Under the pieces are notes generated by a model, which searched no databases, was not told the origin of the DNA, and saw only the letters and a list, made by a program, of their open reading frames with translations. A DNA stretch of 64,000 nt from Schmidtea polychroa (lineage: Eukaryota). Positions within the stretch are counted from its first letter, which is position 1. Every line of letters starts with the position of its first letter. Where the stretch lies: the NCBI GenBank assembly GCA_044892525.1, contig CM097885.1, positions 27,282,001-27,346,000 on the forward strand, read 5' to 3'. Below are positions 1-13,011 of the stretch, one piece after another. The translations under genes and the position numbers were made by a program.

Positions 1-3000
1 ACACATAATTCATTCCTCGTTGGAATGTAGCTGGGGCTCCTGTTAATCCAAATGGTAACACATTAAACTCATACAGTCCTTTGCCATCCGAGAACGCCGT
101 CTTTCCTCTATCTTCCTCTTTTACTCTAAATTGATTGTACCTTTTGTTTAAATCAATAACAGTGAAATATCGTGCCTCTCCCATTTGATCGAACATTTCT
201 TGAGGTACTGGAATTGGATAAGTGTCTTTCCTCGTAACTTGATTTAGCTTCCTATAATTTACGCAAAATCGTAAGTCTCCATCCTTTTTCTTAACTATCA
301 CTATTGATGAGAAGAATGGTGACGCACTATCTCGAATTATTCCAAATTCCTTCATTGCTGTAATCTGTCTATCACTTTCATCTTGATGAACGTAGGGGAT
401 TCTGTATGGCTTTATTTTTATTGGAGTTTCATCTAATAACGGTATTTCATGCTCAATTACATTGGTTAGACCTAAATCATATTCGTGTTTGGCAAAGATA
501 TCTCGGTATTTTCTCAACAGTTTTGTGAATTCCTTTTTCTGCATCTCATTTAAATCATTGCTTACCACTTCAGGCTCCTTGTACACCTTGACGTTTCTTG
601 GTATTTTACAATTTGTTTCAATAGACATTTTTGATAATTTTCCCAATTTTGTTTTTGGGTGTAACTGAACCGGTTTCTTACTGCTATTCGTTATATGGAC
701 TGGTACTATCTGATTTTCCACTTTAACAACTTCGTCACATATCGGTAAATCATATTTTTCGACTAGCGTTTGATTTGGTTCGAATATAAAATCACCATCA
801 TCCACACTCATGGTATTTGCACAATATACCATCTCCGATTGTGGTGGTATTGTCAATGTCTGATTCACAAACACTTCACCTGCCCTGTGAATTATTTCTC
901 CTGTTTCTCTTGCTATCAAATTACCTGTCTTTAAGTCAAGTGAGACTCCGTCCAGCTGCTCTAATATATCCATACCGATCAGACATCGTACTGGGCTTCC
1001 CTCCATTATGAGCGCATCGTGCGCTATTATTCGATCTCCAATATGGAATATGACGTTAAGTTGTCCAATTATGTTTAATTCATTTTTTGATAATGACCTC
1101 ACTATTTCGTCGGTAGGCTTTATTCGCATTTTCTCCTTCGCGTTTAATACATTTTCCGATATTATTGTGTGACTAGATCCCGAATCGACTAAAGCTTCCA
1201 CTTTATGTTTGTTCATTTGTATAAATATTCGGGGTTGCTTTCCTCTTTTTGTTAATGTCATCAATGAGTAGTTGCATGGTAAGCCTAACATATTTTTTCT
1301 CTCGATCTCTGCGCTAGAAGGCTCGATTCTCTCTCCTACCATTCCTTCACATTGTAATGCGATGTTTTCCACTGGTTTCATCTCTCGTAATCGATCAACT
1401 GGATACACTGGTGCTGGTTGCATAAATGATTTTGGTATACACAATTTTGTAAACGTGTCTACGCTACTCGCATTCAACAGTGGCTCTTGTAAGATTTGAT
1501 AAGTTCTCAACGCTTCTTTATTCATTCCACTTAGTTCTTGATTGTCAACATATAACGGTGCACTATCACCCTCGTTGTCATTGTCATTGTTCTCGTCTCT
1601 TGAAGGGGTAGTACTAGCGTAGCTCACCTTTTTCTTCTTTAATATTCTCGCTTTGAGTATCTCCAACTCCTGATATTGATGATGAGTAATGAAGAATCTA
1701 GCCAATAATGGTATGCAACCAATTACTAGTTTCCACGACCAACCTGTGATCGCGTATAATCTGTGTGTTGACAGGATCTGCGACATTATTACTTTGATTA
1801 CAACACATATTACATAAATTCCAATCAATCCGGCACATGCTTGTCCAATGAACATAAACTTTCCCCAGATCTTTTTCATTGTATTATACGTCGCTTTCTT
1901 GTAATGATATGGAGTTAACAAATACTCGTAATTTACCTTCCCACTTCCGCTTGGGAGAATTGTATCTACCATTTCCATTATTACTCTCTCTTTCTTTGAT
2001 GGAAATAACAAGTTTCTGCGAGCTTCCTCAATGTCTTCGCTCGAGTAAATTCCACTTTGCGACAATTTTTCCAACGACGTAGAATTTACCAGATATTGTA
2101 AATCTGTCAATTCTAAGTTTTTCGGTGTCTTTACTTCTCGATGATCTGGTAATGCAATCCAATATTCTGGTGTTAGTCTGTATAGTGGTGCCAACAATCT
2201 ATTGCATTGTAATACTTTCGGTTTCACGTCCTCTTCTAGTAAGATTCGTGTTACAGGCTCCATAAATCGCAACTTTCCATTTAAATTCACTGGTAACTCG
2301 TTGGTGCATTGGTCATACTTTGTCAGTTTAACTGGTACCGCTTTACATTTATAGCTATATAGTGCTTCACCGAAAATTCTGGCAAACACCCCATTTTCTG
2401 TAATTAACATTGGTGCTACCAAATTAGGATTGGTTATAGCCATTGCCATCCGATTTCGGAGTATTTCTTTGTTGAGATTGCAATCATTTATAATAACTTC
2501 TCGGTACACATTTTCAACAGTATTTTGACCAAAGTGAAATAAATAATCTATTTTGTTATTAAAGTAATTTGTCAACTTGATATCTCCGGCATGTATGTTT
2601 GTTTGGGCCTCTGTAATCATCTTCTGAGATACATATATACCTTTATAATTTGTCTCATAGACGTTTTGTCCACACTTTGTTTTAGTTTCTTTTCTCAGGA
2701 ATCGCATTCCATCTTCCTCCGAGGTTGACATTAACACTGTTGGAGTATCTTTCATCCGTAGAGGTGTGATTCTTGTTGTTGTACTCGTTGCTGGATCCAT
2801 TCTTATTTTCTCAGGCTTTTCCCTGATCTGTTCTCCCGTTATTTCTTTAAAGCTCATTGACTTCAATTGCACTAAATTGCACTTTTTGGTATCGACATCG
2901 TACACCAAGATTGATTCTCCTGTCTGACAGCTAGATTGTTTCATGTTGCAGAATGGATGTGTTTGTAGTTTACCAGTATCATCATCAAATGATCCATCAA

Positions 3001-6000
3001 ATTCTCTTAATTCTGACATGTACTCTTCCACAACCACGGCTTTGTCAATTATAGCATCGTCTACTTTGTATGGCTCTCCTTGGCAATCACCATTCGACTT
3101 TATTATCCCTCGCACGGTTACAGTCTCACGGATTTTATGGTTAAGCTTTGCTTGTAGTTTAATATCTGCATTGATTTTCAACTGTCCTGTTTGAAAGGAT
3201 GCCAAACAATTCTCTGGAATTATTTCTATCGGTCTAGGTATTGATTGCATTTTCACCATCGATGAGTGGCTCCATTTTCCACAATAAAATACAAAAGTAG
3301 TTCGTTTCACTGTACACTCTCTCACCTTTGCTCGTCGAAACCCCGACTCTTGATATACATGATATTTTACTGGATTTGTTACTTTAAATTTTACTGGATA
3401 TGCATCCGAACACTCTGCTACGTTTACCAACGAATATACTCTTCCCATTTCGGTTTGGGAGCAATCGTATGCCACCAATGAATTCGTCGTGTTTATTATT
3501 CCCAATAACATAATAATAGAAATCATCAACCATGGAAATGCGAGTTTTCCCTTTTTCCTCACCGTCTCTGGTTTTGGGCTCCCAGCCTTTTGTATCAACT
3601 TTTCCCATCCGCCATTGTTTGCGATCCACTTAGTCAAATATTTATTCGTCATTTCAGTAGCTTTCTTTATCAATGATTTTGAATTGTCACTTTCCAGACA
3701 ACCATAAATACCAATCTCCAATATTATATAGGCTAGCACTGTCAATATTACATCTCGATCCAACTCGGTTCGTGTTAGGTCCTCAATTACTGCTTCCTCA
3801 CAAAATTCCTTTTCTTCATAATTTCTTTTAATTATCGACGGTAATCTCTTCTTTAATTCCGTTGCCAATCTTTTTACAACTCTTTTCTCCCCCTCCGAAG
3901 TATCATCTTCTGTTTCAGTTTCATCTAACAAGTACAATTCCGTAACTAAACTTTTTAATATTCGCTCAGTCTCGCTTGATTCATCTAAACACTCAGTTTC
4001 GCTTGATTCATCTAAACGCTCAGTTTCGCTTGATTCATCTAAACTCAAAGATTCAATTTCCGCATCATTCTGTTTTTTCCGACACATCGCAATGTCATTT
4101 TTAGTTTCAACAAAGTTCTCTTCACTTTTCATCTCATCTATGCTCGGTAGTATCCTATTATCGGTGCTCATTTCCTCAACATCCCTTGTAACTTCATTTT
4201 CCGATCTCATTTCCTCATTTTCCATTGTTTCTAATCTCTGCAATTCATTAATTTCTCGATCAATTTCTCCTGGGTCATCTACAACTTCAGTTTTAATCTC
4301 CACATTATCATTGTCTTTTTCCTCATACAGAGGCCAAAACGGCACTATTACTGCATCTTTTTCCATTTCCTCACTTTGTTTTGTTGCGTACACATTATTA
4401 ATACAATTTGGGTTACATCCGTAGTTTAACAAATATTCATCATCATATAATTCTCGTCCTTTGAACGTCAACACGATAATTCCTTCATTACCTAATATCT
4501 CCGCTGCTTTTTGTCGTATTTTCTTTGCTTTTACACTCCAATGTTCCTGATAATATTCAATCCTTTGATCCGCAATATTTAACGCTATTATCAAAGATTT
4601 CGCACTATCGTCTGCCGCCTCATAATCATGTCCTAGTTTTCGAATTACCTCTTTTAACTTTGCCTGATAACTTGTCGGTTTATTTGTATACGGCACAATG
4701 CATTCAAACAACCCTTCTTTCATATCTCGATCCATTTCGATGCTCATTATGAAGTCGATACTCGCATTAATTTTATCTCTGTTCCCTGCATACAGGGTAT
4801 CTTGTAAATCTGCTAGCATCTTTCCCCAATTTTGTCTGTCTGAATTCAAAGTATTAACAGCATTAACAACATTTACTTTATTTTTCCAGCCTGGTATCAG
4901 ACCGCAATCTACCAAGTACTCCTCGTCTTCCAGACATCGATTCTCAAATTTTAGTTGCACTTGCCATCCACTGTATTGACGCAGTATTCGCTCCTTTAGC
5001 TCTCTAATTTGTCCGTAGGCATTTACACGGAATTGGCACTTCACATTATCAAGTCCCATCGTTTCCACTATGATATCAGCTATATCCCTTGTTGACCGTA
5101 AAGCTTTGCCAAACTTTTGCATTTGTTTAAGTATCTCATCGTCTCTGTTTCCTTTGAATAACTTTGCACATAAATTTATGGCTCTCTTTAGTTCGCCTTG
5201 GGTTAGTGACATCACACTGAGTTCTGCGATCCATCGTTTCAACTGGGAGTTGTCAGTTTCCATTTTCTCAAGCCATTTTTCAACTCGGGCTAACAGTGCA
5301 GTCGGATTCTCATCTGATGCAATTTTTCGCACTTTCGTAGCAGGTTTTCCCTCACCTTCTGACACGGTTCCAATTATCATATGAGATTCAGTTTCTTCAT
5401 CTGATTCGAATTTAGCCACTAGTTTGTTCAGCTTCTGTCGCATTTCTCGAAATTCCTTTTCCATTTTGTCTTGAAATTCCTCTCTCTGAGCATATGTCAT
5501 GTTGCTGGTGTTTGGCATATCTTCTTGGAATCTGATCGATTTCTTTAAAATAGGTCTGCTGAATCTTTCTGAGTTCCTTGGGCATGATCGCGCCATGTGG
5601 CCGTATCCCTTGCTCGAATGACATTGTATCTGTCCATTTGTATTCACTTTGTCCCTTTGTGGTGAAGGTGACGTTGACGATGATCTTGATCTGGTAAAAC
5701 AGTTTCTGCTAATATGCCCTTTCTTTCCGCATCGATAGCATTCGACATCACTGCTGATCCTTTTGTTATCTGTGAATCTCTTGTTAGGGCTGGGATTCTT
5801 CCCATATTTGAACCAACATTGATTTGAATAGTGTCCAGACTTTTTGCAATGTTCGCATTGAGGATTATTTACCTGTCCATTTGATTGTACATTCATGCCT
5901 GATCTACCTGTTTGAAATCTATTATTTGGTCTCAAAATTGGACTACTGATTTGATTTATTTTCTTTTCATCCCATGGTGCTCTCACAGGCGTAATTGATC

Positions 6001-6619
6001 GCTCACGTCTCTCCACATTAACTCCAAAAGCATCTGATCTTTTTGCACTTTTTAAATTCAACTCTATCTTCATGGCTTTCTTCACGAGCTCATCGAAATT
6101 GGAAAAATCCACATAACATAGGGCCTTTTTGATTTCGGAGTGGACTCCGGTTATAAACTGATCTTCTAACAGCTCTTTAACCTGCTTGGCCATATCTGCT
6201 TGATCTGGTTTGACTTCGAAGGCTTTATCTGCTAAATTGGTCAGATGATAAGCAAACTCACTGACCGATTCATCTGGACCTTGAACTCGATTATAAAATT
6301 TCTGTCGCATGATTCTTTTGATATCTCCACCAACCAGTTTCAGTGCCATTGCATCCTTCAATTTTGTCCAATCATTGCCAACATTTCGTTTGTCGACTTG
6401 CTGCCAGGCTTCTCTTGCCGCACCCTTCAGATAGAGTGGGAATCTCTGAACCATAATGGCTTGTGTCCATCGGTATGCTGAGACGTACATATAATAATCT
6501 CACATGAAATCTGCAAATTCAACAGGGTCTCCTCCATATTGATTGACGGGTAATTTCTGGCAACTTGCGAAATCAATCATCTCTCTATTGAGAGGCATAA
6601 CAGCATTATCATTTGCCAT
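1..6619 (-). CDS. Single-frame polyprotein Gag-Ubl-Ubl-Bcl2-like-Env(gB/chuvirus-type)-PR-RT, >2160 aa, 3'-truncated by window; one in-frame TGA at codon 40 (6500-6502)
   Basis: The ATG at 6619 (MANDNAVMPLNRE) and the RT motif VLPFGLTGAPATFQ at 61-20 share one frame. Hand-translated segments had no stop below 6500. The ORF track lists no closed ORF in this frame, as expected if it is open to the window edge. The next ATG is at 6490. Confidence 0.85.
1680..3541 (-). other. Envelope glycoprotein, chuvirus G / herpes gB-like (class III fusogen type), ~620 aa
   Basis: Hydrophobic signal AFPWLMISIIMLLGII, then LVAYDC, FYCGKWSHSS, GDCQGEPY, GEALYSYKCKAVPV, QCTNELPV, FMEPVTRIL, TM FMFIGQACAGLIGIYVICVVI and GWSWKLVIG. 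These motifs are recognised from chuvirus-like glycoproteins. Confidence 0.85.
3590..3970 (-). other. Bcl-2-family-like domain within the polyprotein
   Basis: BH2-like LTKWIANNGGWEKL (cf. Bcl-2 [14 protein letters not shown]). It is preceded at Bcl-2-like spacing by BH3-like VVKRLATELKKRL and a BH1/helix-5-like VIEDLTRTELDRDVILTVLAYII; the NWGR motif is not conserved. Confidence 0.65.
3965..4046 (-). repeat. 3x 27-nt in-frame tandem repeat encoding LDESSETE(R/C)
   Basis: The unit ctcagtttcgcttgattcatctaaac(a/g) occurs three times in an acidic linker. Confidence 0.9.
4384..4597 (-). other. Ubiquitin-like domain 2 within the polyprotein
   Basis: SLIIALNIADQRIEYYQEHWSVKAKKIRQKAAEILGNEGIIVLTFKGRELYDDEYLLNYGC; the LxFxGxxLxDxxxLxxYG pattern matches the ubiquitin-fold C-terminal half. 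Confidence 0.55.
4865..5077 (-). other. Ubiquitin-like domain 1 within the polyprotein
   Basis: DIIVETMGLDNVKCQFRVNAYGQIRELKERILRQYSGWQVQLKFENRCLEDEEYLVDCGLIPG aligns by eye with ubiquitin IFVKT...IENVKAKI...[21 protein letters not shown]. Confidence 0.65.
5580..6619 (-). other. Gag domain (capsid plus three CCHC zinc knuckles)
   Basis: Capsid-like FYNRVQGPDESVSEFAYHL and LLEDQFITGV; knuckles CEHCKKSGHYSNQC, CYRCGKKGHISRNC and a degenerate CHSSKGYGHMARSC. Confidence 0.9.
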
Positions 6620-6946
6620 TTGGACTTGTTTCTGACTTCTGAGGTTGTATCGGTTCACTTTGAGCTAAACTTCAAACGTTAAACAATAATTTAAAATTAC
6701 TTTTCAACTTCTTTTAAATCTCCCAATAATAGCCTTTTATATCTCTCTCGTTAACACTATTTCCACAAATTTTTCACTACTTTTAATGATTCTCAGGCGA
6801 CTTTCACTCACTTCTGTAGTACTTTTCCAATAATTAACTTTTCCACTAACTTCCAATAATTTTCCTCCGACATTCTATCACGTCGGTACTAATTCTTTTT
6901 ATAATTCCTTTTTCAGTAGCTTTCAATAACTTTCCTCCGACTTTGA

Positions 6947-6964
6947 ATCACGTCGGGCTCACCA
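6947..6964 (-). promoter_or_regulatory. Primer binding site complementary to tRNA-Trp 3' end
   Basis: Minus strand reads TGGTGAGCCCGACGTGAT, 7 nt from the LTR end; one mismatch to the canonical Trp PBS TGGTGACCCCGACGTGAT. Confidence 0.85.
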
Positions 6965-6971
6965 GAATATA

Positions 6972-8030
6972 TGTTGGGTTTTGGATTATTTCAAGTCGGT
7001 TCTCTCTGACTCCTGGTGTTCTTTAAATTAAAACAATGAACGACCCAACGTATATTGAAACAACAGGTTCACAAATTATTATCACTCTACAATTACCAAT
7101 CAAAGTTTTATACGATTCTCCGCTCGGCGTTGATGCTTTGCAAACAAACAATATTCACCTTTTGATCCTTTAGTTCTGTTGACTCTCGTTTTCCTCGGTT
7201 TCTGTTTGGTTTGATCCCTTTTCGCCTTTCCGTATTCTTAATTCTATTTCTTCTTTTCCCTACCTCCCTAATTCGTTTATTAACTTTTCCTATCGTCTGA
7301 TTCTTCGAACCCTAGCTGAGGCAGAATGCCGATTTTCTCTGATTTTCCCTTTGCTTATATACTCCTCGAAATCAGGATGACAAATGGTTATTGCCGAGCC
7401 AATCTTTCGTTTGACATTTTCTCCTACGTGTTTGCTTCGGCTGTCATCCATAATGGTCCAACGAATCCAGATAATTAATGGCCCTACCGGTCTTCCTACG
7501 CGCGCTATCTTCTCCTTACTCTTTTCCCATTAATCATTGTGTCAAACTAATGGGCCCAAATCTTCCTTTTGTTTGCCTTTCTTCTTGTTTACCCAGCTCG
7601 GGTTTCCTTTATCTATCGGGTTCTCCATTGGCTCGGGTTTCCCATTAGCTCGGGTTTTCCATTAGCCAATTAATTAATTAATTAACGTTTTCTGTTTTCA
7701 TACGTTTGAATGTTTTTCGACCCTTCCTAACCCTTTTCTGATAAATCCCTAACCATCATCTTGTTGACCATTAGCTACTCTATACCTGTCCCGTTTTTCC
7801 CATTCGATTTCGATGATTTTTCCATTTATTGATTTTTCTCGGATTTCCGGATTCTCGCCTTTCGTAATTGCCTTTTGCATTTTCTAATACTGTTTCCATC
7901 GCACTTTCCTTTACTATTAATTCTGTGCACGATCCCGCTTTTATTTGCCATTTTTCCTCGCTTACTTTCCAGTTGAATTATTATCCTAAATTTTATTTAA
8001 ATTTTTAATTTTAATTTACAGACCTCAACA
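6972..8030 (-). repeat. 5' LTR (~1059 bp)
   Basis: Bounded by TGTTG (6972) and CAACA (8030) and adjacent to the PBS; composition changes after 8030. The partner LTR is outside the window, so the outer boundary is inferred. Confidence 0.75.
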
Positions 8031-9290
8031 TATTTATTATTAGCTACTTTTCGAGTTGACAGATTTTTCGAATGCGTTGTTTCACTCTTAAATATGTTGG
8101 TGATTGTAATTCGTTGTGTTTATCGTTTTTATTATAAGTGTTTTGTGCTTTACTTTGTATTATTTGATGTATAATCATAAATTTTGATTCGACTTGGTGC
8201 GGTATTTGCGCTATGCTACATATTTTAACAAACTCTCAAATTTTCGACTCGAGCTCAACAATGAGTTAAATCTAAACTAAAAAACCACAGATGATAGATG
8301 AATTATTAGACTATCATTACCCAATGACAAGAAGCATAACCAGTATCATAACCAAGTTACCTGCTTATCATGGAAGTTGATTCTGGTGATTATAATTTCA
8401 ACTTGAATTCCAAAACATTTTAAAAATTTACTAGGATATTTTATGAAATGCATATCTGTTGCATAGTTCTGTTGAAATTCATTAAAATCTTAGTTTTGTG
8501 TACACTAGATTGAACTTGTTCATTGAAATTCGAACCAAGCAAACATTTTCGTCGATTGCTTTTCACTCTCTTTCTCGTTGAATTACTATTGGTATTATTT
8601 TCATTCAACGAATCAATGATTGAATCACTAAAAAACCTTTCATATTACACCTATTCGATTTTATCTTCTCTGTATTCACTAAAGTTTCTGCTTTATGCAT
8701 TGGTATCAAAATCTAAAATATTCATTTAAAATTCCAACTATAGTTTTTAGACGACAAATAAGAAAACTCTGATTTCTAAATTCCAAATATAAAATTTATT
8801 CTTGAAACTCCAAAGAAAATTCCAGAAATTTGATTAAAATTTGGACTGATTAACAAAATAGAAAATTCTGAATCACAAAATTATACACCAAACACCACTG
8901 AGAACCATTTCCTATAATATAACAAAAAAATCAATAATGTTACATTATAGAAACATACATACTTACTCTGATTTCACATTGATGTTCTCATTTAGAGTGC
9001 AGTCAGATACATCTTATACTATAGAAATCTGAAAAGTGGAAGAAAAATTATAAACTGCACACAAACACAAGACATACTAAAAAACACATACAAACTTTTG
9101 ATTCATCGAAATGCACCGCTGAGATACATTTCTATAATAATTCTATTTTAGACAATTTTTGGATAAAAAAAAATCGCTGAAAATTTTTAAAAATATATTT
9201 TTAAAGAGCAGATGAATTTTTTTCAATGTCTTTTCAATCCATATTTGCTTTCCTGAAAGAAGCTCCTCATATTGAGCTCAGAAAAAAAAT

Positions 9291-9797
9291 GGATATTGTT
9301 TGATATTTCCCCCCACTTTATTATTATAATTAGTATTATATTATTGAATTAGAATTGACGATAATAAAATTATTGATCTACCTATGAATGCAAACAATCT
9401 ATTTGAACGAACACGAACTCCGCAAGCAACACTGTTACTTTGCCAAGAATTGGGATTAATTCCAATGACTAAACTGTGCACTGTTTGTGGACAAGCAAAA
9501 GACTTGGTATCATGTACCAAGACCAACTTCCCTTTCCGCTGGCGGTGTAAACGGCCTTGCTGTCTAGAAGTAAGTGTACGTGATGGGACTTTCTTTGAGG
9601 CTTCAAAGCTCGATATAAAGGAAATTCTATTTTTTATTTACTACTGGGCATACGAAGAGTGCTCTTTCAAAAAGATTCGCCGTTTTGCTGCGGATTTGCT
9701 GCGTTAATTGTTTTATTATTTATATATTAATAAAAATTAATATGTTATATTAATTTTTAATTTAATTTTAAGTGGGGGGAAATATCAAACAAGAACC
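9291..9797 (+). mobile_element. Internally deleted Merlin (IS1595/ISXO2-like) DNA transposon
   Basis: ~28-bp TIRs GGATATTGTTTGATATTTCCCCCCACTT / AAGTGGGGGGAAATATCAAACAAGAACC; 8-bp TSD AAAAAAAT on both sides. Confidence 0.85.
9384..9707 (+). pseudogene. N-terminal zinc-ribbon part of a Merlin/ISXO2 transposase; catalytic DDE domain absent
   Basis: CTVC...WRCKRPCC...SVRDGTFFEASKL..EILFFIYYWA, typical of Merlin transposase N-termini; ends after 107 aa. Confidence 0.8.
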
Positions 9798-9820: not shown

Positions 9821-10055
9821 TATTAGGATTCTCATCCGTTTTTAAATCACTAAATAATTCCATAAAATTTTATTTAATAAAAGACATCTCAAAAAACTTG
9901 TCTGTTCTTATTTTTGTTATTTAAACAAATTTCAGATTTTCTTAAAATATTTCTTTGATAAATTTCTTCTTTTTAAAATATTTTTCAATAAAAATATTTT
10001 TAAAATTTTTACCAAATTTCTTATTAATCTTTAAGAATCTTTTAACTTCCTCATA
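9821..10055 (-). repeat. 3' LTR (235 bp)
   Basis: Near-identical to 14122-14356 with a few differences; follows the PPT. Confidence 0.9.
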
Positions 10056-13011
10056 TCCCCCTCCTTAAGAAATTTTTTAAGTTTTTCCACGTTTCTTTCA
10101 ATCTTTTTACCATTCTCGTTTCTTAAGATATATCGTCTGTCATGCACTTTCTCGATTACTTTATATGGTCCCTCATATCTGTCCTGGCTTTTGTTGCGTG
10201 TTTCTAATTTTACTAACACATCATCTCCTACGTCAAATTTCCTCCTTTTTTGTTCTTCTTGTTCTTCCTTTACCTGTTTTTCTTTTGACCCGTACCATTT
10301 CTCCCTGCTAATCTTTTTTCCAAAAACTATCTCTGCCGGGCTTATTCCTGTCGTTTTTTGTTTGGTTGCATTTAATGTAAATTCGACTTCTGGTAGTATC
10401 TCTGCCCAATCCGTCTTCCTTCTGTCTCGTAAAGTAGCATTTATCAGCTCTCGTATTGTCCTGAATTGCCTTTCTATCTGTCCATTTGTTTGGTGATGGT
10501 ATGGACTCGAAAAACATAACTTAATATCAAGTTTCTTTGTGAATTCTCTCAACATTCCTGATTCAAACGCCTTCCCACAATCAACTTTTATCTCCTTTGG
10601 GCACCCGAATCTTAAAATCCATTTTTCTAAAATCGATTTTTATTGTTTCTTCGTCTTGTCTTGTTATAGCTGTCAGTACTTGATACTTACTATACTGGTC
10701 TATTATACCCAATATATACTTCTTACGTCCTTTTGTTTCTTGCATTGGTCCACATATATCCACGAATATAATTTCGAACATTTCGGTTGATTCTAATTTT
10801 TTTACTGGTTCCTTCGTTGTAATTGTTATAGCCTTGGTTTTTTGACAAGTCTCACAACTTCGAATAGTTTCCTGAATCTGACTCCACAGGTTTTCCCAAT
10901 ATATCTATCTTTCATATAATCAGCTATCTTCTCGACTCCAGCATGACACAATAGTCTATGTATTTTCTTTATGGTTTCTTGTATCTCGTTTTCAGGTATC
11001 ATCGTTTTCTTTCGTAATTCTTCTTCCAAATTTATTTGTTGATTGGTGCTTCTACCTTCCTCTCTTATCGAGTCTAGTAATCTAGTTTTTATCTTTTCTT
11101 TCTTAGCTTCTTCGTGAGCCATTTGACATTGAACACACGTTTCACATTTAGTTCTGGACACCATGTCTGCATTTTGGTTATTAACACCCTTTCTATATTC
11201 AACGATTATATCCAAATTGCTCAAATAATTGATCCAGGTTTGGAATTGTGAAGTAATTGGCTTCTTGGTTTTCATCATAAACGTGATCGCCTTGTGGTCT
11301 GTCCTTAGTGTGAATCTTCTTCCGTAGAGATAGTGCTTAAAATGAATACAAAAATAGTATACCGCCAATAGTTCCTTCCTTGTAATGCAATATCCTTTTT
11401 CATGGCTCGTCATCGAGTGTGATCCATACGCAATTACTCTCTCCTTTCCATCTTGATCTCTTTGCGAAAGCACTGCTCCAATGGTATCAAAACTGGCATC
11501 AGTATCTAAAATGAACTCCTTTCTCAGATCCGGAAAGCATAGAATCGGTGCCGTTGTGAGTGCTAACTTCATTCCCTCGAATACGTTATTCGTTCCTTCA
11601 GTCCATTCCAGTTTTTTGTTACTCGAACCGCTACATAATTGTTCTAACATCCTTGATTTCTTTGCATACTCACTGATGAATCTTCTATAATAATTACAAA
11701 TGCCTAGAAAGCTTCGATGTTTCTTTACGCAACTTGGCTTCCCAAAGTTTTGTATAGCCTGAATCTTAGAAGGATCGGTTTTTACTCCTTCTTTACTGAT
11801 TATGTGTCCTAAGAATCTGATTTCTTTCTTTATTATTTGACACTTTTCTGGGTTAATCTTTAGTCCTGCTTCATCGATCGCTTTTAATACTTCACTGAGT
11901 ATTGTATAATGTTTTTCTTTACTATTCGAATAAATCAGAATGTCATCCAAATAGACCATTGCTCCATTTATTTTGCCTATTACCTTTGTCATCATTTCCT
12001 GGAACGTACCTGGTGCTGCAGCGATTCCGAACGGCATTCTATTGAAACAGTATTGCCCTTTCTTTGTTGAGAATGCTGTTTTCTCTTGCGATTCTTTGTC
12101 TAACTCCACTTGGTAATATGCATTACCAAGATCGATTGAGCTAAAATAAACGGACCCTCCTAACACATCTAACATCTCGTCTATGGTTGGCATTGGGAAT
12201 GCCTGCCTCTCTGTTACTGCATTCAGCTGTCTGAAATCCAAGCATAGCCTAATATCTTTTTTCTCTTTTTTCCATACGCAGATTAACGGCGTGTTCCATG
12301 GAGAGTTGCATTTCCGTATAATCCCGTTTTCGTACAAATTTTGTATTGCTTCTTCAATTTTTGTTTCCAAATTCAATGGTTGACGATATGGTTTTATGTT
12401 TATCGGTTCACCTCTTGTAATTATCTTATGTTTTACCAAATGCGTGCGACCCACATCCCATTTATCCGCCATAAACACGTTTCCACTGTTCGTTATTATT
12501 TCCTTCAATTTACTATCCTCATCAATCTTTAGATGTTCCAACGCTCGCGTCAATCTTTCTCCATCCTTTATTTGTCTGCCGAATTTTGCTTCAATGTTAC
12601 AAATATAGTTCTTGTCTTTTTCACTAGATTCGATATCTTTTTTTTTGTCAGCCTATATCCAAATGCTTCTTGTAATTCTACTCCTCCAATCACCTCTGGT
12701 GTCACTTTCTCCGCCACAATGAATCTAACTTCCTTAGAAATATCTCCGATAGTTACTTTAACCTTTGTTCTTCCAATTGTCTCTATCGTACTTTCGTTTG
12801 CACATCGTAACTTATCGTCACTTCTAATCAATTGTTGTCCTCGTAACTTGTTAAAACAGTTCACACTCATTAGATTTATTCGTGCTCCGGTGTCTAATAA
12901 ACACTCGAAAATTTCCCCATTCATCATTACTGTTACACTAGGTCTTCCCTGTAGCTTGTTATATACAATTTCTACCTCCTGCCCCGTTTCAATTGTTCCA
13001 ATTCTTTCCAC
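10031..13011 (-). pseudogene. pol (protease, RT, RNase H, integrase) broken by frameshifts
   Basis: ORF fragments contain LLDTGA (PR), YLDDILI (RT), FILDTDAS...TRKELLA (RH), FVDICGP and SSPYHHQTNGQIER...YEGPY (IN). Confidence 0.95.

What the first reader, a model, noticed from the sequence alone, without database searches (positions are those of the whole stretch)
1240..3600. One hydrophobic segment may serve as both Bcl-2 tail anchor and Env signal peptide, leaving Pol tethered to the Env tail
Seen: after BH2 comes RKKGKL-AFPWLMISIIMLLGII-NTTNS/LVAYDC, then ~540 aa of ectodomain, a TM at ~1790-1858, a ~150-aa polar tail and the protease. Inference: signal peptidase would yield a membrane-anchored Gag-Ubl-Bcl2 and an Env-PR-RT chain with Pol on the cytosolic side, so Pol would be packaged via Env rather than via Gag-Pol. 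This resembles flavivirus/alphavirus polyprotein processing rather than retroviral processing.
Basis: inference. Interest (0 to 1): 0.72.

Follow-up and report, generated by a model that had tools for sequence, protein, structure and literature searches.

The report
Retrotransposon enzymes strung between two anchors
A known flatworm retrotransposon encodes capsid, a Bcl-2-like domain, a fusion protein, its copying enzymes and a second surface protein in one reading frame, which likely threads the ER membrane four times so that the enzymes are predicted to hang in the cytosol between two membrane anchors instead of being fused to the capsid.

Summary
The sequence observation is exact. The element is not new: it is a planarian Burro-type GAG-ENV-POL Ty3/gypsy element (Env stretch 249 of 251 residues identical, by eye, to published Smed_errantivirus_2), and its in-frame Gag-Ubl-Bcl-2-Env-Pol order was published in 2019. 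The hydrophobic segment is best read as Env's own signal peptide: stand-alone relatives carry an N-terminal signal-like stretch at the same place, and its distance to Env is fixed while its distance to BH2 varies (47-75 aa, four families). A tail-anchor role for Bcl-2 is a possible by-product, not conserved. The 1690-1740 segment is a kinked helix with 10-residue charge-free runs, not a likely extra TM. Beyond the window the same frame continues past integrase into a second signal-like segment, ectodomain, TM and PDZ-type tail (three families), which supports a cytosolic Pol anchored at both ends. Cleavage and packaging are inferred, not shown; no SignalP or DeepTMHMM was available. This scan noted the Bcl-2/signal overlap (same genome) and the post-integrase protein (another genome) before. 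I found the four-span, doubly anchored Pol reading in no paper searched.

The parts
6972..8030 (-). 5' LTR (TGTTG...CAACA); twin LTR lies beyond the window start; 4-bp target duplication AATA; element about 17.2 kb
   Evidence: 99.4% identity over 1066 columns to the LTR in L021; termini and flanks printed
6946..6964 (-). Primer-binding site complementary to the 3' end of host tRNA-Trp(CCA), 7 bases after the LTR
2..6619 (-). 5' part of the single polyprotein frame (about 3330 codons in all; it runs on 3.4 kb beyond the window start). This copy is broken by a stop at 6502-6500, 40 codons after the first ATG
5582..6442 (-). Gag: capsid-type Retrotrans_gag region and three CCHC-type knuckles (the third degenerate); no matrix-like N-terminal region or Met-Gly start
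   Evidence: Pfam E 3e-8 and 2e-7; sequence
4895..5071 (-). Ubiquitin-like domain
   Evidence: Pfam ubiquitin E 1.6e-5, 25.0 bits, cut-off 25.4
3584..3892 (-). Divergent Bcl-2-like domain: BH2 kept, BH1 NWGR motif replaced; hydrophobic core helix at 3751-3695
3479..3559 (-). SP1: internal signal-peptide-like segment (basic n-region, hydrophobic core, polar c-region); candidate cuts TNS|LVAY or LVA|YDC
1859..3478 (-). Env ectodomain, Monjiviricetes / HSV gB-type (class III) fusion glycoprotein, 14 cysteines
   Evidence: Pfam PF24664 E 7e-92; match to Smed_errantivirus_2
1784..1858 (-). TM1: Env transmembrane anchor, 21 charge-free residues
1685..1783 (-). Amphipathic, proline-kinked segment after TM1; charge-free runs of at most 10 residues; predicted to lie on the cytosolic face
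1265..1684 (-). Polar, poorly conserved Env tail / linker to protease
   Evidence: alignment of three families
947..1264 (-). Retropepsin protease (DSG at 1186)
   Evidence: Pfam E 9e-8
2..295 (-). Start of reverse transcriptase; RNase H, integrase, SP2 (L021 7651-7601), second ectodomain, TM2 (L021 6667-6590) and tail follow in frame outside the window

Best explanation
One reading frame encodes Gag, a ubiquitin-like domain, a Bcl-2-like domain, a gB-type Env, PR-RT-RNase H-IN and a second membrane protein, and it carries four membrane-type segments that likely thread the ER in the order in (SP1), out (TM1), in (SP2), out (TM2), so that signal peptidase would give three chains: Gag-Ubl-Bcl-2 ending in SP1, Env-TM1-Pol-SP2 with Pol as a cytosolic loop held at both ends, and a type I surface protein. 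SP1 is Env's inherited signal peptide; it would anchor whatever lies upstream, Bcl-2 included, only until it is cut again by signal peptide peptidase or the element's protease (the HCV core-E1 pattern). Gag has no matrix region, so this anchor is a likely way to bring capsid to the membrane. Pol would reach the budding site through its two anchors at one copy per Gag and be cut free by its own protease. Shown: frame, domains, four segments, their conservation. Inferred: topology (about 0.8), cleavage at SP1 and SP2 (about 0.75), packaging through the anchors (about 0.45).
For: Stand-alone relatives P0004 (707 aa) and P0005 (632 aa) start with Met and carry a hydrophobic stretch directly before the same xxAYDC/xxGFDC motif; the Pfam model begins at that motif (positions 4-636 of 653 from the AYDC region). 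All six proteins tested have a -3,-1 small-residue site within 8 residues before YDC. SP1 has 3-5 basic residues on its N side and none on its C side in 3 of 3 families and is intact in 29 of 30 copies examined. BH2-to-AYDC distance 47, 60, 63, 75 aa. The post-TM segment scores +2.2 to +3.1 against -1.4 to +0.3 for TM1 in the three genome families and has K...R/K brackets 10 residues apart in all three. SP2, ectodomain and TM2 follow integrase in frame in this element, in L120-L122 and in L127; a signal peptide needs its N side in the cytosol, which fixes Pol there by parity. Tails end in T-R-L, T-W-V, S-L-V, a class I PDZ-type motif (motif recalled). The family is young and has full-length frames: LTRs 99.4% alike, 9 of 144 scored copies with a frame of 3334 aa or more, so Pol must reach cytosol or nucleus. 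Published DeepTMHMM runs place a signal peptide or TM before, and one TM after, gB-type errantivirus ectodomains (PMC13524379, passages). One 10.6-kb contig of a probable RNA run covers the whole frame without a large gap.
Against: No trained predictor was run; the insertion scores use a recalled scale with home-made weighting and are uncalibrated. In the stand-alone relatives the gap between TM1 and the post-TM segment is smaller (P0004 1.6 against 2.7; P0005 0.3 against 2.4, with a 17-residue charge-free run), so a hairpin in part of the family is not excluded. The Bcl-2 core helix of this family scores -0.34 (26 of 29 copies), inside the TM range, although +3.8 and +5.7 in the other two families. 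The Env ectodomain has 1 glycosylation sequon against 4.0 expected and the second ectodomain 4 against 3.7, so sequons give no support for a luminal place here. The genomic context of P0004 and P0005 could not be seen, so their start codons are unverified. No data bear on packaging.
Confidence: 0.68

Rival explanations
1. True dual use: the segment is kept as a lasting tail anchor for an active Bcl-2-like protein as well as being Env's signal peptide.
For: In this family BH2 lies about 30 residues before the hydrophobic core, as in a multicopy spliced Bcl-2-like gene of the same genome (L085-L099); the charge-free run is 26-27 residues in two families. A three-copy deletion derivative of the third family keeps Gag-Bcl-2 in frame with TM2 after losing SP1, Env and Pol (3 of 26 matches span the joint).
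Against: Distance to BH2 varies by 28 residues; core only 12-14 residues with an acid and a lysine behind it in two of four families; BH1 NWGR is lost; the derivative's joint has an 8-base microhomology and one frame in three is kept by chance.
Confidence: 0.25
2. Topology as above, but Pol is packaged by another route: it is cut free early and binds genomic RNA or Gag (foamy-virus style), or a fraction of chains skips SP1 and acts as a cytosolic Gag-Env-Pol precursor for intracellular transposition.
For: Foamy virus Pol is made apart from Gag and packaged through RNA (PMC3196705, abstract). Retropepsins cut themselves out of precursors (established knowledge); a likely cut lies about 25 residues before DSG. 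SP1 stands about 1000 residues from the N-terminus.
Against: Retroviral proteases are normally activated by clustering during assembly (established knowledge), which membrane anchoring would provide; four segments are kept across families only 35% identical.
Confidence: 0.3
3. Pol is made from a separate spliced or frameshifted message that skips Env, so the Env-Pol junction is incidental.
For: A GTAAGG donor-like site lies in the LTR at 7519-7514; only about 2 in 100 of the raw-read run was read, and 8 and 74 joints were not shown.
Against: None of the 15 joints shown links gag to pol; sense reads and contigs cover all 30 bins. No 2A-like motif and no slippery site shared by the three families. 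A 3-read joint 3313-7534 has five extra letters and no GT-AG ends.
Confidence: 0.12
4. An extra membrane span (the 1690-1740 segment, or the Bcl-2 core helix) flips the topology and puts Pol or Env on the wrong side in most chains.
For: Post-TM segment is moderately hydrophobic and conserved into stand-alone relatives; the Bcl-2 core helix scores -0.34 in this family.
Against: 10-residue charge-free runs around a proline; the core helix aligns to the buried BH1 helix of solved Bcl-2 and is not TM-like in two other families; luminal Pol could not explain young insertions; SP2 parity.
Confidence: 0.08

Closest known systems
Smed_errantivirus_2 and the flatworm GAG-ENV-POL HSV/gB-type errantiviruses (Chary and Hayashi, PMC13524379)
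   Same: Env stretch differs at 2 of 251 residues by eye (supplement row); GAG-ENV-POL order; gB-type Env flanked by signal peptide or TM. The two other families found here resemble Smed_errantivirus_1 and _3 by eye.
   Different: The main text has no occurrence of Bcl, Burro or splicing and, in the passages read, no processing model, no post-integrase membrane protein.
Burro / GYPSM1 giant Ty3/gypsy elements of planarians (Arkhipova and Yushenova, PMC6431247, section 7)
   Same: [quoted passage not shown]
   Different: This element is 17.2 kb with about 3330 codons, not over 30 kb with 4873; no MATH, BIR or ankyrin hits in the polyprotein. The section does not discuss membrane topology, cleavage or a protein after integrase.
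Atlas virus, hookworm belpaovirus (PMC9094657, passages)
   Same: Single Gag-Pol-Env polyprotein with internal TM helices and host cleavage sites; Pol is followed in frame by membrane proteins.
   Different: Env is C-terminal and class II; Gag and Pol stay joined on the cytosolic side.
HCV core-E1 junction (PMC5402940, abstract); flavivirus and alphavirus capsid-envelope junctions (recalled)
   Same: Capsid chain ends in the envelope's signal peptide, is anchored after signal peptidase and freed by a second cut; enzymes follow membrane proteins in one chain.
   Different: RNA viruses with no reverse transcriptase to package; analogy of mechanism only, not kinship.
Foamy virus Pol (PMC3196705, abstract)
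   Same: Pol is not part of a Gag-Pol fusion.
   Different: Separate message and RNA-bridged packaging; no membrane anchor.

Membership tests
Ty3/gypsy (Metaviridae) LTR retroelement | Pol order PR-RT-RNase H-IN | tested here: met
   Pfam on both parts of the frame
Ty3/gypsy (Metaviridae) LTR retroelement | TG...CA LTRs, tRNA primer site, polypurine tract, 4-6 bp target duplication | tested here: met
Ty3/gypsy (Metaviridae) LTR retroelement | RT phylogeny within Ty3/gypsy | not tested
   no tree built; the near-identical published element is classed there (PMC13524379)
GAG-ENV-POL HSV/gB-type errantivirus | gB-type / Monjiviricetes Env between gag and pol | tested here: met
   PF24664 E 7e-92; 249 of 251 match to Smed_errantivirus_2 by eye
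Burro / GYPSM1 | Gag-Ubl-BCL2-Env-Pol in one frame | tested here: met
Burro / GYPSM1 | Giant size (over 30 kb, about 4900-aa frame) with MATH, BIR, ankyrin domains | tested here: not met
   17.2 kb, about 3330 codons, no such Pfam hits; filed as Burro-like, not as Burro1
Burro / GYPSM1 | Sequence identity to a named Burro-1 to -4 | not testable with these tools
   Grohme 2018 not held
Bcl-2 family | BH1-BH2 homology | tested here: met
   E 2.5e-5 to solved Bcl-2; hhalign 91%; NWGR motif replaced
Bcl-2 family | Bcl-2 helical-bundle fold | tested here: inconclusive
   model pLDDT 50.5; no significant fold match
Tail-anchored Bcl-2 protein | Lasting C-terminal TM at a kept place after BH2 | tested here: inconclusive
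   spacing fits in this family, varies 47-75 aa and core shortens to 12-14 residues in others
Cleaved internal signal peptide | Basic n-region, hydrophobic core, -3,-1 site, homologous to N-terminal signals of stand-alone relatives | tested here: met
[quoted passage not shown]
   needs N-terminal sequencing or a trained predictor

The most novel reading that the evidence does not exclude
Planarian GAG-ENV-POL elements are retroelements built like flaviviruses: one four-span ER polyprotein in which capsid is anchored by its C-terminus, Pol is delivered to the particle as a cytosolic loop pinned between the fusion protein and the signal peptide of a second, receptor-like surface protein, and a captured Bcl-2 domain is displayed on the same membrane. 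Membrane topology would replace the Gag-Pol fusion as the way a reverse-transcribing element packages its enzymes.
Probability: 0.4. Interest if true: 0.75.

Novelty: new variant of a known kind. Interest (0 to 1): 0.5.

Why it matters
Almost all LTR elements and retroviruses package Pol as a Gag-Pol fusion. An Env placed in frame between Gag and Pol breaks that link as soon as its signal peptide is cut, and the papers read that describe this gene order do not say how such elements cope. The four-span reading gives a concrete, testable answer and may apply to the GAG-ENV-POL elements of nematodes and bryozoans. The element and its domain order are already known; what is added is the topology, the second anchor behind integrase and the evidence that the disputed segment belongs to Env.

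Tried and rejected
Protein searches with the single sequence found nothing; the three-family profile found 4 of 4551 candidates, of which P0006 lacks both ends and was left out of the signal and TM counts. No relative in viral contigs. Env profile against solved structures gave only weak centrin matches, E 0.03 or worse. The 1.84-billion-protein search never ran, so the comparison rests on four polyprotein families and two stand-alone proteins. AlphaFold models were poor: post-integrase protein pLDDT 39, strands plus one confident TM helix; Bcl-2 region pLDDT 50.5, no fold match. ESM Atlas gave leads only: FN3 plus TM clusters at 0.82-0.85, Bcl-2 clusters at 0.78. Pfam gave no FN3 or dUTPase hit on the cut-outs, so the FN3 and dUTPase-like labels are unconfirmed here. 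Sequon counts do not tell lumen from cytosol. No listed holder is on record as RNA. 2A-like skipping and a shared frameshift site were looked for and not found. Troyka (PMC12440569, abstract and passages) was rejected: CG termini, no envelope. Cer1 (PMC10309623, passages) has Gag-Pol and no Env. Grohme 2018 and Sacco 2022 are not held; Sacco 2022 describes nematode env-before-pol elements and may discuss processing.
Full report
What is there. The finding lies in a minus-strand frame open from 6499 to the window start. Pfam finds Gag, zinc knuckles, a ubiquitin-like domain, a weak Bcl-2 match, a Monjiviricetes fusion glycoprotein (E 7e-92), protease and RT. The neighbouring stretch L021 carries the rest: RT, RNase H, integrase and about 400 further residues to the stop. 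LTRs of about 1.06 kb are 99.4% alike, end TG...CA, and are flanked by a 4-bp duplication; the primer site matches host tRNA-Trp. This copy has a stop 40 codons into Gag. The family is large: 144 of 2388 candidates were scored, all 93-100% identical over the Bcl-2/Env junction, and 9 of the 144 lie in frames of 3334 codons or more.

What is known. Arkhipova and Yushenova (PMC6431247; section 7 read whole) describe planarian Burro elements with Gag, Ubi/SUMO-like, BCL2-like, Env, PR, dUTPase-like, RT, RNase H and IN in one frame and call it the first in-frame env between gag and pol. Chary and Hayashi (PMC13524379; passages and supplement rows) report GAG-ENV-POL elements with gB-type Env in flatworms, nematodes and bryozoans; their Smed_errantivirus_2 Env stretch differs from this one at 2 of 251 residues by eye. 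The host is therefore taken to be a planarian. The architecture is not new. Searches returned no paper on the membrane topology or processing of these polyproteins; Grohme 2018 and Sacco 2022 could not be read, and the figures of PMC13524379 are not held.

Is the Bcl-2 domain real? Yes by sequence: a profile of six element sequences from three families finds solved Bcl-2, Bcl-xL and A1 (best E 2.5e-5) and aligns to host-type Bcl-2 stretches of the genome (91%). BH2 is kept; NWGR of BH1 is replaced. The fold could not be confirmed.

Whose segment is it? A Bcl-2 search of the genome and an Env search led to two further element families, 65% and 36% identical over the Env region; a metagenome fragment, P0003, is a fourth. 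In all four the hydrophobic segment ends a few residues before AYDC, while BH2 lies 47, 60, 75 and 63 residues away. Two stand-alone relatives begin with Met and a hydrophobic stretch before the same motif. All six have a -3,-1 site there; in this element two fit, TNS|LVAY and LVA|YDC. In the third family and P0003 the core is 14 and 12 residues, followed by an acid and a lysine: a signal peptide, a poor lasting anchor. In this family and the second the charge-free run is 26-27 residues, and the 30-residue spacing from BH2 matches a spliced Bcl-2-like gene of the genome, so a lasting anchor is possible here. The simplest reading is that the segment came with Env and anchors the upstream chain as a by-product. 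HCV core shows how such an anchor is then removed by signal peptide peptidase (PMC5402940, abstract).

Where does Pol sit? In all three genome families it has charged residues 10 apart around a proline and scores +2.2 to +3.1 on a rough, recalled insertion scale, against -1.4 to +0.3 for TM1. That fits a kinked helix on the cytosolic face. The margin is smaller in the stand-alone relatives, and the scale is uncalibrated. A second hazard is the Bcl-2 core helix, which scores -0.34 in 26 of 29 copies of this family but +3.8 and +5.7 in the others; it aligns to a buried helix of solved Bcl-2. The strongest added argument lies outside the window: after integrase the frame runs into a second signal-like segment (basic flank, 16 charge-free residues, -3,-1 sites), about 310 residues of predicted strands, a very hydrophobic TM and a short tail. 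The same order stands in the third family (L120-L122; ectodomain 196 aa) and in L127 of the second (36% identity over 313 columns; that copy has lost RT to most of integrase). Tails end T-R-L (5 of 6 copies seen), T-W-V and S-L-V. A signal peptide has its N side in the cytosol, so Pol lies there and the number of spans between Gag and Pol is even. An FN3-like fold for the second ectodomain is a lead only.

Is there another route to Gag-Pol? Reads of one raw RNA run of a related organism (about 2 in 100 read) and contigs of three probable RNA runs cover all 30 bins of window 1-8200; none of the 15 joints shown links gag to pol, and 8 were not shown. One 10.6-kb contig runs through the whole frame, but its run is only guessed to be RNA. 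In one search all 15 joints shown came from one run of unknown kind and 74 were not shown, so that call tests little. No 2A-like motif and no shared slippery site were found.

Mechanism. Shown: one frame, the domains, four conserved membrane-type segments. Inferred: co-translational insertion gives Gag-Ubl-Bcl-2-SP1, Env-TM1-Pol-SP2 and a type I surface protein at equal amounts; Gag, which lacks a matrix region, is brought to the membrane by SP1; Pol is concentrated at the same membrane by two anchors; the protease then frees CA, NC, Bcl-2 and the enzymes. Packaging through the anchors is the least supported step: foamy viruses package a separate Pol through RNA (PMC3196705, abstract), and a fraction of chains could skip SP1. 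Atlas virus is the nearest retroelement precedent for membrane proteins in frame behind Pol (PMC9094657, passages).

Earlier notes of this scan, looked up after searches had given the same points, record the Bcl-2/signal overlap in this genome and the post-integrase protein in another; they are not independent support.

Verdict. Real feature, known element, partly right interpretation. The segment is Env's signal peptide first; Pol is very likely cytosolic and is predicted to be anchored at both ends. Interest 0.5; 0.75 if anchor-based packaging were shown.

Noticed in passing
L021:6527-7651 (minus strand, same frame, outside the window): Second membrane protein after integrase: signal-like segment, strand-rich ectodomain, TM, tail with PPSY and a PDZ-type end; kept in three families.
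   Followed up: partly
L111:1-4417, L109: Deletion derivative of the third family that joins Gag-Bcl-2 in frame to the stalk and TM of the post-integrase protein, without Env and Pol; 3 of 26 matches span the joint.
   Followed up: partly
L103, L127: Single copies with in-frame deletions that join the protease region directly to the post-integrase protein.
   Followed up: no
L120-L123, downstream of the polyprotein stop: The third family has a further frame of 530-780 codons overlapping the end of the polyprotein; no such long frame in L021 behind this element.
   Followed up: no
L085-L090, L098, L099: A multicopy, apparently intron-containing Bcl-2-like gene with a C-terminal hydrophobic tail, spread over several chromosomes; possibly carried by another transposon.
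   Followed up: no
G000:C4:55.02 Mb (L132): Tandem array of tRNA-Trp(CCA) genes with a 284-bp period; 821 pattern matches genome-wide, 99 of the 100 listed in this array.
   Followed up: partly
window 10031-12652: A second, unrelated Ty3/gypsy pol (RT-RNase H-IN by motif), broken into several frames, on the minus strand.
   Followed up: no
window 9348-9707: Short frame with a transposase-like zinc-ribbon look (label recalled, not tested), flanked by what appear to be inverted ends near 9300 and 9790.
   Followed up: no
window 3960-4040: Three tandem 27-base repeats (LDESSETE) in the acidic linker before Bcl-2; one unit is missing in a related contig.
   Followed up: no
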